A stretch of DNA of 64,000 nt from Raja brachyura. Taxonomy: Eukaryota. This document shows positions 35,301 through 44,300 of the stretch, piece by piece. A program made the position numbers. The number at the start of each line of letters is the position of its first letter. Positions within the stretch are counted from its first letter, which is position 1. The stretch is taken from the NCBI GenBank assembly GCA_963514005.1, contig OY740816.1, forward strand, positions 17,980,001 to 18,044,000, in the 5' to 3' direction.

Positions 35301-38300
35301 TACAGCTGAGAAGCATGACGTAAGCATGGATGTGGGAGGCCCTTCAAGGATGAGAAGCAGCAGCAGTTCTTCTGAGTCAGACAGTAGCAGTGACTCCAGC
35401 TCCTCTGAGAGCAACGACTCTGAAACAGGTTAGCGTCAATTCTTTCAGTAATTGAGCCTGTTGCTAGCCTGGCGCTGGCAAAGTCTGTTTCCCCTCTGCC
35501 CCACGTACTCTCTGTAAACCACCCATCGTAGTTTCCAACCGACAACCAGTGACTTCTAATTATCACTGCAATACATACAGTTTGCCAGATTAATGGAGCT
35601 TTTTACCAGTAGTTCCTTGTGTTAAAAGAACAACATGTCTGGAAGAAATTCTAGAGCTAGTCTGTTTAAGCTGCATAGAAAAAGTGCAATAATGCTGACA
35701 GTGACCATTGAAAGCCATAAAAAGAGCTTAAGTTGCACTTAAATTAGAAAGCAGCTTCAACAGAGAAAATTGTTTTGCTCTTGGAAAAAGCAGGATTGTT
35801 TTTTTTCTACCTCGTCTTTTGAAAGATCGACGTTTGACTACCAGCAAATGAAATTTGCTTCACCTGTCTAAAAAAAAAATGTATGAAGGATTTCTGGTCA
35901 GGACATGCATTTGGAATGCTGTTTACAAAACATGGCGTTCACCTGAGTGCAGTTCGTGTAGCATTTCAGATGGTTGGTGCTAACACAGATCTGCTGTGAA
36001 AGGGGCAGGTTTCAAGATATTCCCCAACTCCATGTGCACTGTGGACTCTTGCGCAGTAAGGTACATGTGCATTGTCTAAATTTGATTATAAAAACAGTGA
36101 GAGGACAGCAAAAGGAGGAGAAAAAACCTGGTGGGCTACAGATCTTTATCCTTTTCAACTGTTACAATTGGCAAAAAATTATCTACATCCTGCATTCTAC
36201 TACTACACCTTCATGGCCGTCGACTCAGTGAGATTTCGCATTTAAAGCAAGTAAGCTATTTAATTATGTACCATTATTTTTTACTATTGTAGAAAACGCC
36301 CGGTTAGTTAGTTGCAAGGCTGTCCCTTAATCTTGGAGCCAGTTATTTCTAACTTATGCTTGTATATTTTCTCTTGCGTCAGTCATAGTTTAAAAATGAT
36401 GGTCTTGTAATTTACCGCCTAGATGTTTCCACTTAACTATAATTTTCAGAAAATACCAGTTGTGCATATATGACCACGTCAGATTTTGTTAATTGTCACT
36501 ACCCATAGCAAAGAGTCATTGCTGAACATTTGAACAAAAATCCTATCATATCCTGTGATCTGCCTATTAAGTTGCACACCATTAAAATATGTTTAATACA
36601 CAGGCTTTCATTCACTCAAGAGTTCTGCCCTGAAGATTGTTTGAGGGCTGCAATTTGACAGGACCCCTTGACCCAAGCTCCCTCTTCCTTGTTCCTGATT
36701 GCTTCCACTGACTGCAGAGGAATTGTCTCCAGTGCTGACTCGTAACCTAGCTAATTTTGAAATGTGGAAAAGTGCAGTCAAGTTTTCTGGAAGCTTGTTT
36801 TCTAGTTTTGTACATCATTTCAAATTTTTCAACTCTTCAATTTTGACCTTCGGAGTTCTTTAGTTGCTCTCCTTTCCCGCTCTCTATCTCCCCCCCCCCC
36901 CACCCATCCAAATGTCATGAAATCAAAGTATTTTTTCCACTGAAATATCAGTAATTGATATTCTGATGAGGGATAACTGAACAAAAGGTTTCTAATTAAC
37001 ATTATGTGCACCTCCAGTTTAGTGGGTAAATTTCATTATGTACATTAGTTGGTCATTCAAGATTCGGTTACAGAACGATTAAGGTGCTCTTGCTGTGTGT
37101 ATTTAATATATCCAAGATAATTGTCAACAGTTTTATTTTTGTAATGTTCATGCGTGTTACGGTATGTATGGTCTTTGGATGCTGTGATTTCTTACACAAA
37201 TGCTATCTTTGAGATGAGTTAATTTTTTTAGTTGTAAGCTGTACCTTTCTACAGATTGAATTGTGTAATAGCCACAGAGTGCAGAGTTTGGAACTGAGAG
37301 GTCAGCCGGCTGCATATTACATTGTTCCTGCTGTGATTATCATATAAGTACAAGATAAAATCTTGTAATGGGGCTGGGTCGTAGATGTGAGGCAATGTAA
37401 ACTGCACAGAGTTGGGAAGTCCAAAAGCTTCCTTCAGAGTTAACACATTGGCTTTAGTAAATACATCTAATCAAAATACAATTCCAAGTATTGAGAAGTA
37501 TTTTTAAATGTACAGGACAGCTCGGTAATATTGCACCATCTGTCTTTATTTTGTGAGAAGGCAATAGCCTAATTTTAGAGAGCTAACATTTTGAGATGTA
37601 GCAAACGCGATTTAAACCAAAACAAAAAGGTTGAAGTATATGGAACCATTTTTTTCAAAGATGTATAAAAATTTGCGAATTGTCTGCCAACAATGGATAT
37701 ATGCCTGTGAAAACTAGTTCAGACACGTGGATTTTGTGTGATTCCTCAAATTTCTACGTTATTGAATTTGGCAATGAAAGTAATATTTCATATTCTTAGA
37801 TATGACGGTCACAAATCTTTTGGACGAAACATTGTCATTAAATTCATATTTCGTGCTTTGCTGTAGCTCGCACTGCTTAAAGTTATCAAGCGTGCGCTCC
37901 TAGATATCCATATTGGATGTTAAGATAATTTGATTACTAGAGGCAGCACAGCATTGCTTGATTGAGTTCATCTCCAATACCCTATTCCCATGTAGATGTG
38001 TGAATTTTCAATCGGATGCTGTAGAAATGCTCGAGACTTGGTCTTCCAATGAGAATTTTGTGATATAATGCCAGCTGTTATATTCTGGTTCAAATCCACT
38101 CATTCACCACAGATTAATATTCAAACCTCAAACCTTTCTACTGTGCCAAGCATTGGTTTCACCTTCAGATTGTTGGGGCCTGATCTCAGTCATCCATGTA
38201 CACATCATATTATGCCGGTGTATTAAGATGTGATCAGATTTTCAATCTAAATGGCCGGCTTTGTACACAACTTAAACACCTATTACAGTTCATATTGTCT

Positions 38301-41300: not shown

Positions 41301-44300
41301 TCTTCTTGGTGACCTACCTTTGACTCCCAGTTGACAGACACCTTTTTGATTTCTTCTTTTTCAACACATACATGACTAATAGCTTACCAACTCAAGTATT
41401 CCTGAGCTGGACAGCTTTGAGGTATTTAAACTCACATTCTGATTTCTTGAGCCATTCTTGATTGTGTTCACCGTCAACGGGCAGGTATTCAAATAATATA
41501 AATCCTCCCATAAACTTCTATATTTTGTTGTATATAATTCAAACTACTCCTTGGCCAAGCATCTGATGTACTTCCCTCTTGAAGTTGTACCAACATGCCT
41601 GGATAAATATTGAAACCAACCCAATTGATAGTTTGGGGCACTGCTGGGGCCTGCTTCTCTGTGATTAAGTCTGTTGCCTCACAGCACCATTGATCTGATG
41701 ATAGACACAAAGTGCTGGAGCAACTCAGCGTATCAGGCAGTATCTCTGAGGAAAAAGGATGGGTGATTCTTCAGACCCAACATCATCCATCCTTTTTCTC
41801 CAGAAATGCTGCTTGACCTGCTGAGTTACTTGACACTTTGTGTCTATCTTCAGTGTACACCAGCATCTGTAGTTCCTTTCTACTCCGTTGATCTGGATTT
41901 AGTCCTGATCTTCAGCACGGTCTGTTTGGAGGTTGCATATTACACCTATGACCGTGGTTTTCCCCAAGTGTTTCAGTTTCCTCCCACAGTTGGTAGGTTA
42001 ATTGGCTGCTACAGATTGCCCAAAATGGGTTGTGGGTTGTAAAATTGATGAGAATGAGGAGAAAGTAGGTACAGGAGCAATTGGGTACTCTGAGCCAGCA
42101 TCAATTCAATTGGCTGAAATGGGCTTGTATATCATTCGGAAAATTGGAAGTCCCTTCCAGAAATTGTAATCCTGTTCACAACAGGAGAAAAACCTAAATC
42201 AGTATTGCATGCGACAAATGATGGATGCATGAGAGCAAAATTGCGCCACTGCACTGAAAGGTGTGTTCTTGAGGCTACAGCAAATTGGATTTGACTGTTT
42301 AGGAAAGAACTGCAGATGCTGGTCTAAATCGAAGGTAGACACAAAATGTTGGAGTAACTCAGCGGGACAGGCAGCATCTCTGGAGAGAAGGAATGGGTGA
42401 AGTTTCGAATTGAGACCCTTCTCAGTCTCAGTATGAAGAAGGGTCTCTACCCGAAACGCCACCCATTCCTTCTCTCCAGAGATGCTGGCTGTCCCGCTGA
42501 GTTAATCCAGCATTTTGTGTCTACCTTAGATTTCCCTGTACTCACATAACAGGTCAATGCTGGACTCTGATGTAAGAATGTCGATAGTATTGGTAAGCAT
42601 GAGATATTAGACCACATTCTTTCCTTAATCATAACATCCCTAAAGCCAACCAGTGAATCACTTAGGAAACTTTACCCTCCCAGGCATTCTAGGCAACTGC
42701 CACTCTTCTATTCTTATAACGTTGCATGACTTGGTTCCATCACAGTCTCTTTCATTGTGGAATTCAGTTTATTGGGAAATTAGGAATGTTAGCCTGTGCT
42801 TGGAATCCAAGCATGTAATATTCCATAGTTAATTTTTGCTCCCAAAGAGTTGAAGTGTCACCTTTGAAGGAATGCAAAGGGCAGAGTCCATGGAAATTAT
42901 CCCTCAATCTATTTGCTGTCAACTGTTGATAGTACAAGCAGGAACATAGTGACAATGGGCTTTGGAATTGGCATGGCTGCAAACCATTTCTTGTGAGATT
43001 TGAACACATCCTTTCCAAGTCGCTTGAGTCAGCAATGAGTTCCCAATACAGCATTCATGTGGATCTCAATAATGTTGAGTTTGTACATGGGAATTGGCAT
43101 TTTCAAAGGCTAATTAGATATATCCTCCCCTTCTCCAAAATGTGCCTTGTCATTACTTCAACTAGATTTGAGGCATAAAGTGCATAATCAATCTTTCAGA
43201 ACTAAATGTACCATTGTTAGGATTGTTTAAATATTTTCAGTTATTACAGAGGCTTGGCTTGGTTTGCAATAAAGCTGGATTTTATTTGAAGTGTGAACTG
43301 CTGAGTAAATTCATTTATGGATGTTTTTTAACTGCCTCTCAGCCTCAGAAATCCCAGAAAGTTACTTAAAAAGTTGTTAAACATCGTTGCCTGAATATGT
43401 GGTGGAAGAGGTTGTTCTTAAGTGAACTCGCCAACATCCTTAGCTGATGACTGTAGCACTGTTAAGTGTGCCCCTTTCAAAATGAACTATTAACAGGATA
43501 TTTGTTACCAGAAATGCAGCTTTTGTGGTATATTTTATTTACTCTTTCTACTTTCTCGTTTAATATGTATCCAATGCATGTTGACTTTCTATATTTGGGG
43601 TTAAATTATATGTATTTTTTTTACTTTGTATAGTTTTCTATTTTCATTATTTCTCAAATAAAACAAGTTTACAAACAAGAATGTGTTTGCTTGCTGGGTT
43701 GAGTTGTAGACTGTCCAGGTCCGCATAGGTCCCTGAATTATCTTGCACATTTCTATGTCCTGCAATATGCCTCATTGTTTTGGTGACCACCTACACAGGT
43801 AAGTTGGCTATACATCAAAAATGATCAATTTAAACCAGATGTCCCATCAAAAATCACATGATAAACTATTGCCATAACTTTCATAAATATTCTATTCCTA
43901 CTGATTTTTTTTCCACAAAGCTCTGGTGAAAATATACAGCAGATCTAGTACATGAGAATGAAAATCACAATACATAAATAATTAACATGACCACATGCAA
44001 TCAGAAAGCCCTTTATCTTTTTAATTTCCCACATCAATATATCTTCAACTTGATTTCAATGATCCTAACAAGCTATCCACTCTTGTATACAATGCTGTTT
44101 ACTCATCTCAGCCTGTTGCCCTTGTCTGCAAATTGAGTAGTTTCATTTCAAGCAGTTATTCCATCCGAATAGTATGATGGTGTTTTAAGAAAATACTTCA
44201 TAGTGGGGAAAGTATTTGGAAGGTGGAGTGTGGGTAGTGTTTGCTGCAGCTGAGAAATGTTAGTGGTAAACATCAGCAGAAACCTCAAGAAAACTGCGAA

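What the first reader, a model, noticed from the sequence alone, without database searches (positions are those of the whole stretch)
35429..43700. Short BRD4 isoform by donor read-through (SETG*) with a long 3'UTR hidden in the 21-kb intron
Seen: the SEED exon ends ACA G|GT TAG, so skipping the donor gives Gly then stop (TAG 35431-35433). About 5 kb downstream (to about 40700) has no transposon I can recognise, unlike the rest of the window; 39960-40180 is dense in U-tracts and TGTA; AATAAA occurs at 39248, 40413 and 43657, the last with a GT-rich downstream element. Known: mammals make BRD4-S ending SETGPA, and BRD2/BRD3 end right after SEED. Inference: a long/short switch by intronic polyadenylation which, with the coiled-coil exon, would yield a protein with BRD2/3 architecture from the BRD4 locus.
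Basis: partly seen in the sequence, partly recalled or inferred. Interest (0 to 1): 0.7.

Follow-up and report, generated by a model that had tools for sequence, protein, structure and literature searches.

The report
Candidate short BRD4 isoform terminus
In this BRD4 gene a stop codon sits directly behind one splice site and the window's best poly(A)-site look-alikes lie 5 to 8 kb further on, so a short BRD2-like protein could be made simply by not splicing there, but no RNA data could be checked.

Summary
The sequence facts hold. The Ser/Asp/Glu-rich ("SEED") exon is 35306-35428 and ends ACA G|GT TAG. An unspliced transcript would therefore read ...NDSETG and stop at 35431-35433. The next exon of the long form starts at 56583, so the intron is 21,154 nt.

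Downstream evidence is better than chance. Of 255 AATAAA/ATTAAA sites on both strands, the sense-strand sites at 43657 and 40413 rank 1 and 2-4 for poly(A)-site context. The block 39956-40176 is the most U- and UGUA-rich 221 nt of the window. Within-window repeats cover 0.8% of 35429-40700, against 19.1% for the rest of the intron.

The predicted end is collinear with skate BRD2-like proteins to their last residue, a Gly followed by a stop.

Human BRD4-S uses a separate last exon with its own splice acceptor (PMC6300607), not donor read-through. No such GPA-stop exon exists in this intron.

The repeat-free flank is not unique, because other exons have similar flanks. No transcript or annotated protein could be found to test the model.

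Verdict: a plausible, unproven composite-terminal-exon variant of a known long/short switch. Confidence is about 0.45 and interest is moderate.

The parts
18146..18432 (+). ET-domain exon of BRD4. It ends in phase 1, so its last G plus the CT of the next exon makes Ala.
   Evidence: Sequence. tblastn to gecko BRD4 P0012 residues 587-681, E 3e-46. Pfam PF17035 is carried by the hits.
24373..24492 (+). Candidate cassette exon of 120 nt encoding a BRD2/3-like coiled-coil segment. It enters and leaves in phase 1. The acceptor is ...tgtttgcag| and the donor is AAAG|GTTGGT.
   Evidence: tblastn to skate BRD2-like P0023 residues 649-684, 53% identity, E 1.4e-6. Sequence, translation.
35306..35428 (+). 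SEED exon (Ser/Asp/Glu-rich), 123 nt, phase 1 in and phase 1 out.
   Evidence: tblastn to P0012 residues 680-716, E 1.2e-4, and to P0023 residues 699-733, E 3e-4.
35429..35434 (+). Splice donor GTTAGC. It is the only one of the 7 donors of the long-form exons read with T at +3; an eighth donor, that of the candidate cassette exon at 24373-24492, also has T at +3. It matches 7 of 9 consensus positions.
   Evidence: The consensus CAG|GTAAGT is recalled.
35431..35433 (+). In-frame TAG reached when the donor is not used. The product ends ...SETG.
35434..40435 (+). Proposed proximal 3'UTR, about 5.0 kb. It is free of within-window repeats except one 42-nt element.
   Evidence: No Pfam match or Rfam match. 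That it is a UTR is inferred, not shown.
39956..40176 (+). U-rich, UGUA-rich block, the top-scoring 221-nt window on either strand.
   Evidence: combined z 10.9; next best 8.95.
39248..39253 (+). AATAAA, context rank 5-11 of 255.
40273..40278 (+). Its context score is poor (rank 104-237 of 255).
40413..40418 (+). AATAAA, context rank 2-4 of 255. It lies 354 nt before the first repeat downstream of the repeat-free stretch.
43268..43273 (+).
43657..43662 (+). AATAAA with the best poly(A)-site context of the window. It has 3 UGUA in the 100 nt upstream and 64% U in the 50 nt upstream.
   Evidence: rank 1 of 255, score 8.8 against 4.9 for the runner-up. (rank 1 in 4 of 4 parameter sets; 0 of 100 simulated windows reach the score).
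43680..43715 (+). GU-rich downstream element behind the 43657 site.
   Evidence: Sequence. Downstream score 0.90.
56583..56644 (+). Next exon of the long isoform. The G of 35428 plus AG makes Glu, followed by VPPKTKHGSHKSRSGREQKK.
   Evidence: BLASTP to P0012 residues 718-734, E 5e-4.
34957..34998 (+). First copy of a 42-nt perfect direct repeat (pyrimidine-rich), 308 nt upstream of the SEED exon.
36667..36708 (+). Second copy of the 42-nt repeat, 1239 nt downstream of the donor.

Best explanation
The window holds the middle of a BRD4 gene. After the SEED exon (35306-35428) two fates compete.

If the donor G|GTTAGC is used, the transcript is spliced across 21 kb to 56583 and goes on to encode the long, Pro/Gln-rich BRD4-L.

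If cleavage and polyadenylation in the intron wins, the exon simply continues as a composite terminal exon. The split Gly codon is completed by the GT of the donor, the next codon is TAG, and the protein ends ...NDSETG. The 3'UTR would run to a site near 40.43 kb (about 5.0 kb), to the strongest site near 43.68 kb (about 8.25 kb), or to both.

The same six bases thus serve as splice donor and as Gly-stop. With the optional 120-nt coiled-coil exon at 24373-24492, the short product would have the layout of BRD2/BRD3: ET, coiled coil, SEED, Gly, stop.

Shown: the sequence features and the collinearity with relatives. Inferred: that RNA actually ends there, and the ratio of the two forms.
For: 1. 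In-frame TAG directly behind the donor. It depends on T at +3. Among the 7 donors of the long-form exons in the window, only this one has T at +3. The donor of the candidate cassette exon at 24373-24492 also has T at +3. T at +3 is rare among vertebrate donors, about 3% as recalled.

2. The read-through Gly is the residue expected at the end of short BET proteins. Skate BRD2-like P0023 aligns over residues 699-733, to its last residue G, with window 35338-35430. Of 19 named vertebrate BRD2 sequences printed, 18 end ...DSDSG. A shrimp and a fungus-gnat short BET protein end ...SDSEAG. A mole-rat BRD4-S ends ...KTGPA. These were 31 named rows that I picked from the 120 rows.

3. Poly(A)-site context: of 255 AATAAA/ATTAAA sites on both strands, + strand 43657 ranks 1 (8.8 against 4.9), 40413 ranks 2-4 and 39248 ranks 5-11, over 4 parameter sets. 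None of 100 first-order Markov simulated windows reaches 8.8; their maximum is 7.42.

4. The block 39956-40176 (+) is the most U/UGUA-rich 221 nt on either strand. It lies just upstream of the 40273 and 40413 hexamers.

5. Repeat coverage is 0.8% in 35429-40700 against 19.1% in the rest of the intron. The repeat-free stretch ends 354 nt after the 40413 hexamer.

6. A long/short BRD4 switch is known in mammals (PMC6300607 passages; PMC8579545 passage). A short brd4 construct is used in Xenopus work (PMC11266789 passage). A FSH-S form is cited for Drosophila (reference list of PMC2373290).

7. No mammal-type alternative exon (acceptor, then codons for Gly-Pro-Ala and a stop) exists in the intron.
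Against: - No RNA, EST or annotated protein evidence was reachable.
- The one precedent whose mechanism is described (human) is a separate last exon with its own acceptor, not read-through.
- The donor is not weak. It matches 7 of 9 consensus positions and is mid-range among the 7 long-form donors. RNA around it has no unusual structure (z -0.55).
- The first canonical AATAAA is 3.8 kb from the donor. U1 bound at a used donor is known to suppress nearby sites (recalled).
- A stop soon after any unspliced donor is expected anyway. A second one follows 6 codons later.
- Repeat-free flanks of 3-5 kb also border other exons. A 5.3-kb gap without + strand AATAAA also occurs at 9608-14908.
- My poly(A) score is ad hoc. 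I had read the 43657 sequence before writing it.
- Beyond 40.77 kb the putative long UTR contains a tandem repeat and two multi-copy hairpin repeats.
Confidence: 0.45

Rival explanations
1. A short isoform exists but is made as in mammals. The donor at 35428 is spliced to an alternative last exon inside the intron that has its own acceptor, a few codons, a stop and one of the strong poly(A) sites (40413 or 43657). Under this reading the TAG behind the donor is a coincidence.
For: - The human BRD4-S terminal exon has a splice acceptor whose disruption abolishes the short form (PMC6300607).
- The same strong poly(A)-site contexts fit this model equally well.
- The 43657 site sits in its own repeat-free island, 42534-44980.
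- Acceptor-like sites with good pyrimidine tracts lie upstream of both sites, for example at 39737 and 43349.
Against: - No acceptor followed by codons for Gly-Pro-Ala and a stop occurs in the intron (0 matches).
- 979 AG sites were scored and none stands out.
- The model leaves unexplained the rare +3 T that makes the TAG, the match of the read-through Gly to the BRD2 terminus, and the repeat-free 5 kb that starts at the donor itself.
Confidence: 0.25
2. There is no short isoform from this intron. It is a constitutively spliced intron, the TAG is a chance by-product of an unusual but functional donor, the poly(A)-like sites are silent or suppressed, and the repeat-poor flank reflects ordinary constraint near exons or intronic regulatory DNA.
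For: - Other exons of the gene also have repeat-free flanks of 3-5 kb.
- The donor matches 7 of 9 consensus positions.
- AATAAA is generally over-represented in this AT-rich window (141 observed against 96 +/- 8 expected).
- No annotated or assembled short form was found in 3 protein searches and 1 representative search. Those collections also lacked any chondrichthyan BRD4, so this is weak evidence.
Against: - The 43657 site is an outlier that 0 of 100 simulated windows reach.
- The two best contexts of 255 both lie on the sense strand within 8.3 kb of this donor.
- The strongest U/UGUA block of the window lies there too.
- Long/short BRD4 forms are known in mammals, and Xenopus and Drosophila short forms are mentioned in the papers read.
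Confidence: 0.25
3. The poly(A)-like sites and the repeat-free DNA belong to something other than BRD4 mRNA, such as an independent sense-strand non-coding transcript or an old single-copy mobile element with its own 3' end.
For: Single-copy elements cannot be seen by self-comparison of one window. No repeat library was available.
Against: None of 17 ORFs between 34.0 and 43.2 kb has a Pfam match, of the 20 ORFs scanned. There is no Rfam match at gathering score. No A-rich tail follows the 43657 site.
Confidence: 0.05

Closest known systems
Mammalian BRD4 short isoform (BRD4-S, 722 aa in human, ending Gly-Pro-Ala)
   Same: It comes from the same gene and breaks at the same point, directly after the SEED exon. 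The first added residue is Gly. It lacks the whole Pro/Gln-rich C-terminal half. It is produced by a choice between splicing onward and polyadenylation within the following intron (PMC6300607 passages; PMC8579545 passage; mole-rat P0034 ends ...KTGPA).
   Different: The mammalian form is spliced to a separate last exon with its own acceptor (PMC6300607). Here the stop lies in the unspliced donor itself, Pro-Ala is absent, and no GPA-stop exon exists in the intron.
Vertebrate BRD2 C-terminus (...DSDSG, stop), and BRD3 (...SESE, stop)
   Same: The layout is ET domain, coiled coil, Ser/Asp/Glu tract, then the end. The skate BRD2-like protein aligns with the read-through product to its terminal Gly. 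The coiled-coil segment aligns with the candidate exon at 24373-24492.
   Different: BRD2 and BRD3 are separate genes with no long form in the sequences seen. Here the same architecture would be one output of the BRD4 locus. The coiled-coil exon here is diverged (53% identity), and its inclusion is untested.
Composite terminal exons made by intronic polyadenylation (recalled textbook case: secreted versus membrane immunoglobulin mu heavy chain)
   Same: The 5' splice site competes with a poly(A) site inside the downstream intron. The unspliced form reads into the intron to a nearby stop.
   Different: In that textbook case the poly(A) site is close to the exon. Here the candidates are 3.8-8.3 kb away, and nothing has been shown experimentally.
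Drosophila fs(1)h short and long forms (FSH-S / FSH-L)
   Same: A single BET gene gives a short and a long protein. Arthropod short BET proteins seen here end ...SDSEAG, again with Gly last. FSH-S is known to me only from a reference title in PMC2373290.
   Different: The gene structure of the arthropod short forms was not examined here.

Membership tests
BRD4 orthologue (BET family) | ET (NET) domain exon | tested here: met
   Window 18147-18431 finds BET proteins carrying PF17035 (3669 hits with E <= 1e-20). tblastn with gecko BRD4 residues 587-681 gives 90% identity, E 3e-46.
BRD4 orthologue (BET family) | Long Pro/Gln/His-rich C-terminal extension after the SEED tract, collinear with BRD4 rather than BRD2/3 | tested here: met
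   Gecko BRD4 P0012 aligns as follows: residues 718-734 to 56585-56644 (E 5e-4), 734-841 to 58980-59228 (E 5e-21), 840-1019 to 60676-61272 (E 3e-48), and 1020-1056 to 62199-62303 (E 9e-5).
BRD4 orthologue (BET family) | Two bromodomains and the C-terminal P-TEFb-binding motif (PF17105) | not testable with these tools
   Only the end of the second bromodomain lies in the window (7470-7598). The first bromodomain and the C-terminal end lie outside it.
Mammal-type BRD4-S (alternative last exon) | Separate terminal exon with its own splice acceptor, encoding Gly-Pro-Ala then a stop | tested here: not met
   0 matches to an acceptor AG followed by GN CCN GCN and a stop codon in 35429-56582. A diverged exon with other codons cannot be excluded.
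Mammal-type BRD4-S (alternative last exon) | Protein ends directly after the SEED exon, with Gly as the first added residue | tested here: met
   The read-through gives ...SETG and a stop. This is a prediction from DNA only.
Composite terminal exon / intronic polyadenylation isoform | In-frame stop reached when the 5' splice site is not used | tested here: met
   TAG at 35431-35433.
Composite terminal exon / intronic polyadenylation isoform | Functional poly(A) site on the sense strand in the intron | tested here: inconclusive
   The best and the second-to-fourth best contexts of 255 hexamers lie there. The score is ad hoc and there are no 3'-end reads.
Composite terminal exon / intronic polyadenylation isoform | Weak 5' splice site and large intron (association recalled from the literature on intronic polyadenylation) | tested here: inconclusive
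   This is the largest intron in the window, at 21.2 kb. The donor has a rare +3 T but matches 7 of 9 consensus positions, mid-range among the 7 long-form donors.
Composite terminal exon / intronic polyadenylation isoform | Transcripts continuous from the exon into the intron and ending in poly(A) | not testable with these tools
BRD2/BRD3 architecture | Coiled-coil segment between the ET domain and the SEED tract | tested here: met
   Exon candidate 24373-24492, phase-compatible, E 1.4e-6 to the skate BRD2-like coiled coil. Its inclusion in mRNA was not tested.
BRD2/BRD3 architecture | Stop directly after the SEED tract (BRD2: Gly then stop) | tested here: met
   P0023 residues 699-733 align to 35338-35430, ending on the terminal Gly. 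Of 19 named vertebrate BRD2 sequences, 18 end DSDSG.

The most novel reading that the evidence does not exclude
The splice donor that opens the way to the long BRD4 tail was born inside the ancestral end of the BET gene. The hexamer GGT-TAG is at once the old Gly-stop terminus, still seen as ...SG-stop in BRD2, and the 5' splice site of BRD4-L.

This lineage would keep the ancestral dual-use site. One locus would then give a BRD2/3-like protein by read-through (with the retained coiled-coil cassette) and BRD4-L by splicing. Mammals would later have moved the short ending to a separate exon.
Probability: 0.25. Interest if true: 0.6.

Novelty: new variant of a known kind. Interest (0 to 1): 0.4.

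Why it matters
BRD4-S and BRD4-L have different, partly opposing activities in mammalian cells. Their ratio is a drug-relevant variable (PMC6300607, PMC8579545).

If an early-branching vertebrate makes the short form through a stop codon embedded in the splice donor, three things follow. The long/short switch predates the mammalian alternative exon. Its oldest form is a plain contest between U1 recognition and polyadenylation. And the BRD4 long tail can be read as an add-on to a BRD2-like gene.

It would also give annotators a concrete isoform to look for. Gene models that insist on splicing at 35428 would miss it.

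Tried and rejected
- Protein search with the SEED exon against longer proteins: no hit. Serine runs crowded the candidate list.

- Protein search with the ET exon against longer proteins: 3669 hits, 120 listed. None is a chondrichthyan BRD4. The 98%-identical P0002 is a genomic ORF that runs through the exon into both introns of a close relative, so it says nothing about splicing.

- Search with the tail of the named mole-rat BRD4-S: 4 hits among 87 candidates. No short form from a non-mammal.

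- Representative search with the ET exon: 2186 hits, 150 listed, mostly ORF fragments. No full-length hit has its ET domain ending about 41 residues from the C-terminus. Unnamed hits at 90-93% identity were not fetched, because they may be mammalian or human.

- Mammal-type GPA-stop exon: none found. The ranking of 979 AG sites by pyrimidine tract did not single out an acceptor.

- Rfam on 33-45 kb: 7 matches at E <= 1, all far below their gathering scores. Six are microRNA models on the hairpin repeats at 41.7 and 42.4 kb. One is a cis-regulatory model at 35742-35864 (20 bits against a gathering score of 90, E 0.82).

- Pfam on 20 ORFs: only the reverse transcriptase at 45397-46494.

- RNA fold of the donor region: z -0.55, so nothing unusual.

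- The 5-kb stretch without + strand AATAAA (34217-39248) is not special. A 5.3-kb gap occurs at 9608-14908.

- The bacterial promoter/terminator scan is irrelevant to a vertebrate gene and was at chance level.

- Literature: I found no paper on BRD4 isoforms in cartilaginous fishes. Eight papers hold both 'BRD4' and 'cartilaginous fish', and none of the 7 listed titles is on this topic. One search was too loose to count as a test.

- The spliced protein model was never joined. Exons were searched one at a time.

- The window is not taken for human. It has a coiled-coil exon absent from the tetrapod BRD4 sequences seen, and its ET exon is 92-93% identical to the mammalian hits.

Full report
**What the locus is**

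On the + strand the window carries the middle part of a BRD4 gene. Searched exon by exon, it is collinear with gecko BRD4 (P0012):

| Window coordinates | What it is | P0012 residues / E-value |
|---|---|---|
| 7470-7598 | end of bromodomain 2 | – |
| 11769-11996 | exon | – |
| 16647-16859 | exon | – |
| 18146-18432 | ET exon | E 3e-46 |
| 35306-35428 | Ser/Asp/Glu-rich 'SEED' exon | 680-716, E 1.2e-4 |
| 56583-56644 | next long-form exon | 718-734, E 5e-4 |
| 58980-59228 | exon | E 5e-21 |
| 60676-61272 | exon | E 3e-48 |
| 62199-62303 | exon | – |

The window has no N. I do not take it for human. The taxon was not established. The nearest sequence is an unnamed 204-aa ORF (P0002, 98% identical) that reads through the ET exon into both flanking introns of a close relative.

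**The observation**

It is correct. The SEED exon ends ...GAC TCT GAA ACA G|GT TAG C. GT is 35429-35430 and TAG is 35431-35433. The read-through translation is ...SSSSESNDSETG, then a stop, with another stop six codons later. The long form continues at 56583, so the intron is 21,154 nt.

On the + strand between 35429 and 43700 there are five AATAAA, at 39248, 40273, 40413, 43268 and 43657.

**Is it more than chance?**

I scored every AATAAA and ATTAAA on both strands, 255 sites in all, for three standard features of vertebrate poly(A) sites:
- UGUA count in the 100 nt upstream;
- U fraction in the 50 nt upstream;
- a GU-rich 20-mer downstream.

The + strand site at 43657 ranks first, at 8.8 against 4.9 for the runner-up. 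Site 40413 ranks third and 39248 ranks eighth. Over four parameter sets 43657 is always first, 40413 is second to fourth and 39248 is fifth to eleventh. None of 100 first-order Markov simulations of the window reaches 8.8; their maximum is 7.42.

This score is my own, and I had read the 43657 sequence before writing it. It is supporting evidence and not a calibrated test.

The block 39956-40176 (+) is the top 221-nt window on either strand for TGTA count, U tracts and U fraction combined (z 10.9, next 8.95).

**Repeats**

A self-comparison of the window finds repeats over 15.7% of it. The figure is 0.8% for 35429-40700 and 19.1% for the rest of the intron. None of 17 ORFs between 34.0 and 43.2 kb, of the 20 scanned, has a Pfam match. 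Nothing reaches an Rfam gathering score.

The repeat-free stretch ends at a 20-nt tandem repeat that starts at 40772, 354 nt after the 40413 hexamer.

This needs qualifying in three ways. Self-comparison misses single-copy elements. Stretches of 6.6-6.8 kb without repeats also surround the exons at 16.6-18.4 kb and at 56.6-59.2 kb. The absence of + strand AATAAA over the first 3.8 kb is matched by a similar gap elsewhere.

**The donor**

The seven donors of the long-form exons in the window are:
- CAG|GTACTG
- CAG|GTAAAT
- AAG|GTGAGT
- CAG|GTTAGC (the SEED exon)
- AAG|GTAGGA
- CAG|GTGTGT
- CAG|GTAAGG

Among these seven, only the SEED donor has T at +3, and that T creates the TAG. The donor of the candidate cassette exon at 24373-24492, AAAG|GTTGGT, also has T at +3; it is not one of these seven. 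T at +3 is rare in vertebrate donors, about 3% as I recall.

The SEED donor still matches 7 of 9 consensus positions and is not the weakest of the seven. The surrounding RNA has no unusual fold (z -0.55).

**Comparison with relatives**

The predicted end fits the family. Skate BRD2-like P0023 aligns over residues 699-733 with window 35338-35430. The alignment runs to the last residue of the protein, a Gly, which falls on the read-through GGT.

I printed the C-termini of 31 named proteins picked from the 120 rows:
- 18 of 19 vertebrate BRD2 sequences end ...DSDSG. The exception is an aberrant frog entry.
- A sawshark BRD3-like protein ends ...SESE.
- Five spider proteins end ...SDSE.
- A shrimp and a fungus-gnat short BET protein end ...SDSEAG.
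- A mole-rat BRD4-S ends ...KTGPA.

A Gly directly after the acidic serine tract, followed by the end or nearly so, is thus a widespread ending of short BET proteins.

The stretch 24373-24492 has a good acceptor and a GT donor. It is 120 nt long and enters and leaves in phase 1, as the flanking exons require. It encodes ...SELDTRLHDVSGQLSTGKKP..., which is 53% identical to the BRD2-like coiled coil (E 1.4e-6). This segment is absent from the BRD4 sequences of gecko, newt, mole rat, lizard, frog and tarpon that I saw.

Passages of Tzelepis et al. 2018 (PMC6300607) state that human BRD4-S is defined by its final exon 12. Two guide RNAs against the splice acceptor of that exon switch cells from the short to the long form. 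The guide sequences in their Table 1 imply that the acceptor is followed at once by the Gly-Pro-Ala codons and a stop.

Mammalian BRD4-S is therefore an alternative last exon and not a donor read-through. A review passage confirms the three residues GPA (PMC8579545).

I looked for such an exon here, as an acceptor followed by GN CCN GCN and a stop. There is none in the intron. Many other acceptor-like sites exist, for example at 39737 and 43349. A diverged alternative last exon that uses the same poly(A) sites cannot be excluded.

**What could not be done**

No RNA data and no other vertebrate genome are available in these tools. The three protein searches and the one representative search returned no chondrichthyan BRD4 at all, so their silence on a short form carries little weight.

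Supplements of the papers were not consulted. Figure 3f and 3h of PMC6300607 could not be seen, only their legends.

In the library I found no paper on BRD4 isoforms of cartilaginous fishes.

**Verdict**

The best reading, at about 0.45, is a composite terminal exon. Failure to use the donor at 35428, together with polyadenylation near 40.43 and/or 43.68 kb, gives a short BRD4 ending SETG.

Two rivals stand at about 0.25 each: a mammal-like alternative last exon, and no short form at all. An unrelated transcript or element stands at about 0.05.

This is a new variant of a known kind. The long/short BRD4 switch is well known. A stop codon embedded in the donor, collinear with the BRD2 terminus, would be a different and possibly older way of making the short form.

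Noticed in passing
window 24373-24492 (+): A phase-compatible 120-nt candidate cassette exon lies in the ET-to-SEED intron. It encodes a BRD2/3-like coiled-coil segment (...LHDVSGQL...). The segment is absent from the six tetrapod and teleost BRD4 sequences seen. Its donor, AAAG|GTTGGT, also has T at +3.
   Followed up: partly
window 34957-34998 and 36667-36708 (+): A 42-nt perfect direct repeat, pyrimidine-rich, brackets the SEED exon, 308 nt upstream and 1239 nt downstream. There are only two copies in the window at up to 3 mismatches. The flanks are similar over about 95 nt but much more diverged. It could be a paired binding site for a pyrimidine-tract protein that controls this exon or its donor, or the relic of a duplication.
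   Followed up: partly
window 40772-40992 (+): A tandem repeat of a 20-nt C/T-rich unit, 11 copies at 94% match. It opens a long spurious ORF (40509-41216) and marks the end of the repeat-free stretch.
   Followed up: yes
window 41695-41883 and 42296-42533; copies also near 4.1, 8.6, 10.0, 14.7, 25.8, 30.3, 30.8, 33.5 and 53.6 kb: A multi-copy short element of about 100-230 nt, up to 14 hits per position, partly palindromic. It matches several microRNA models far below their gathering scores, which is typical of a hairpin-forming miniature mobile element.
   Followed up: partly
window 45397-46494 (-); also 10151-11647 (-) and 1310-1918 (+): Reverse-transcriptase ORFs of retroelements. The 45.4-46.5 kb ORF matches RVT_1 at E 1e-26. 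In the 21-kb intron the element is antisense to BRD4. The other two were read from ORF translations only.
   Followed up: partly
window 37030-37250 (+) and 62724-62944 (+): These are the second and third most U/UGUA-rich blocks on the + strand (z 8.1 and 8.7). The first lies inside the proposed 3'UTR.
   Followed up: no
whole window: AATAAA is over-represented on both strands together: 141 observed against 96 +/- 8 in dinucleotide-preserving shuffles. Bare hexamer counts therefore mean little here.
   Followed up: yes
window 18075-18635 (+) compared with protein P0002: An unnamed 204-aa ORF from a public assembly reads through the ET exon and both intron flanks. Its intron-encoded parts are still largely identical to the window by eye. 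A very close relative's genomic DNA therefore exists in public data and could serve for a first conservation check.
   Followed up: no
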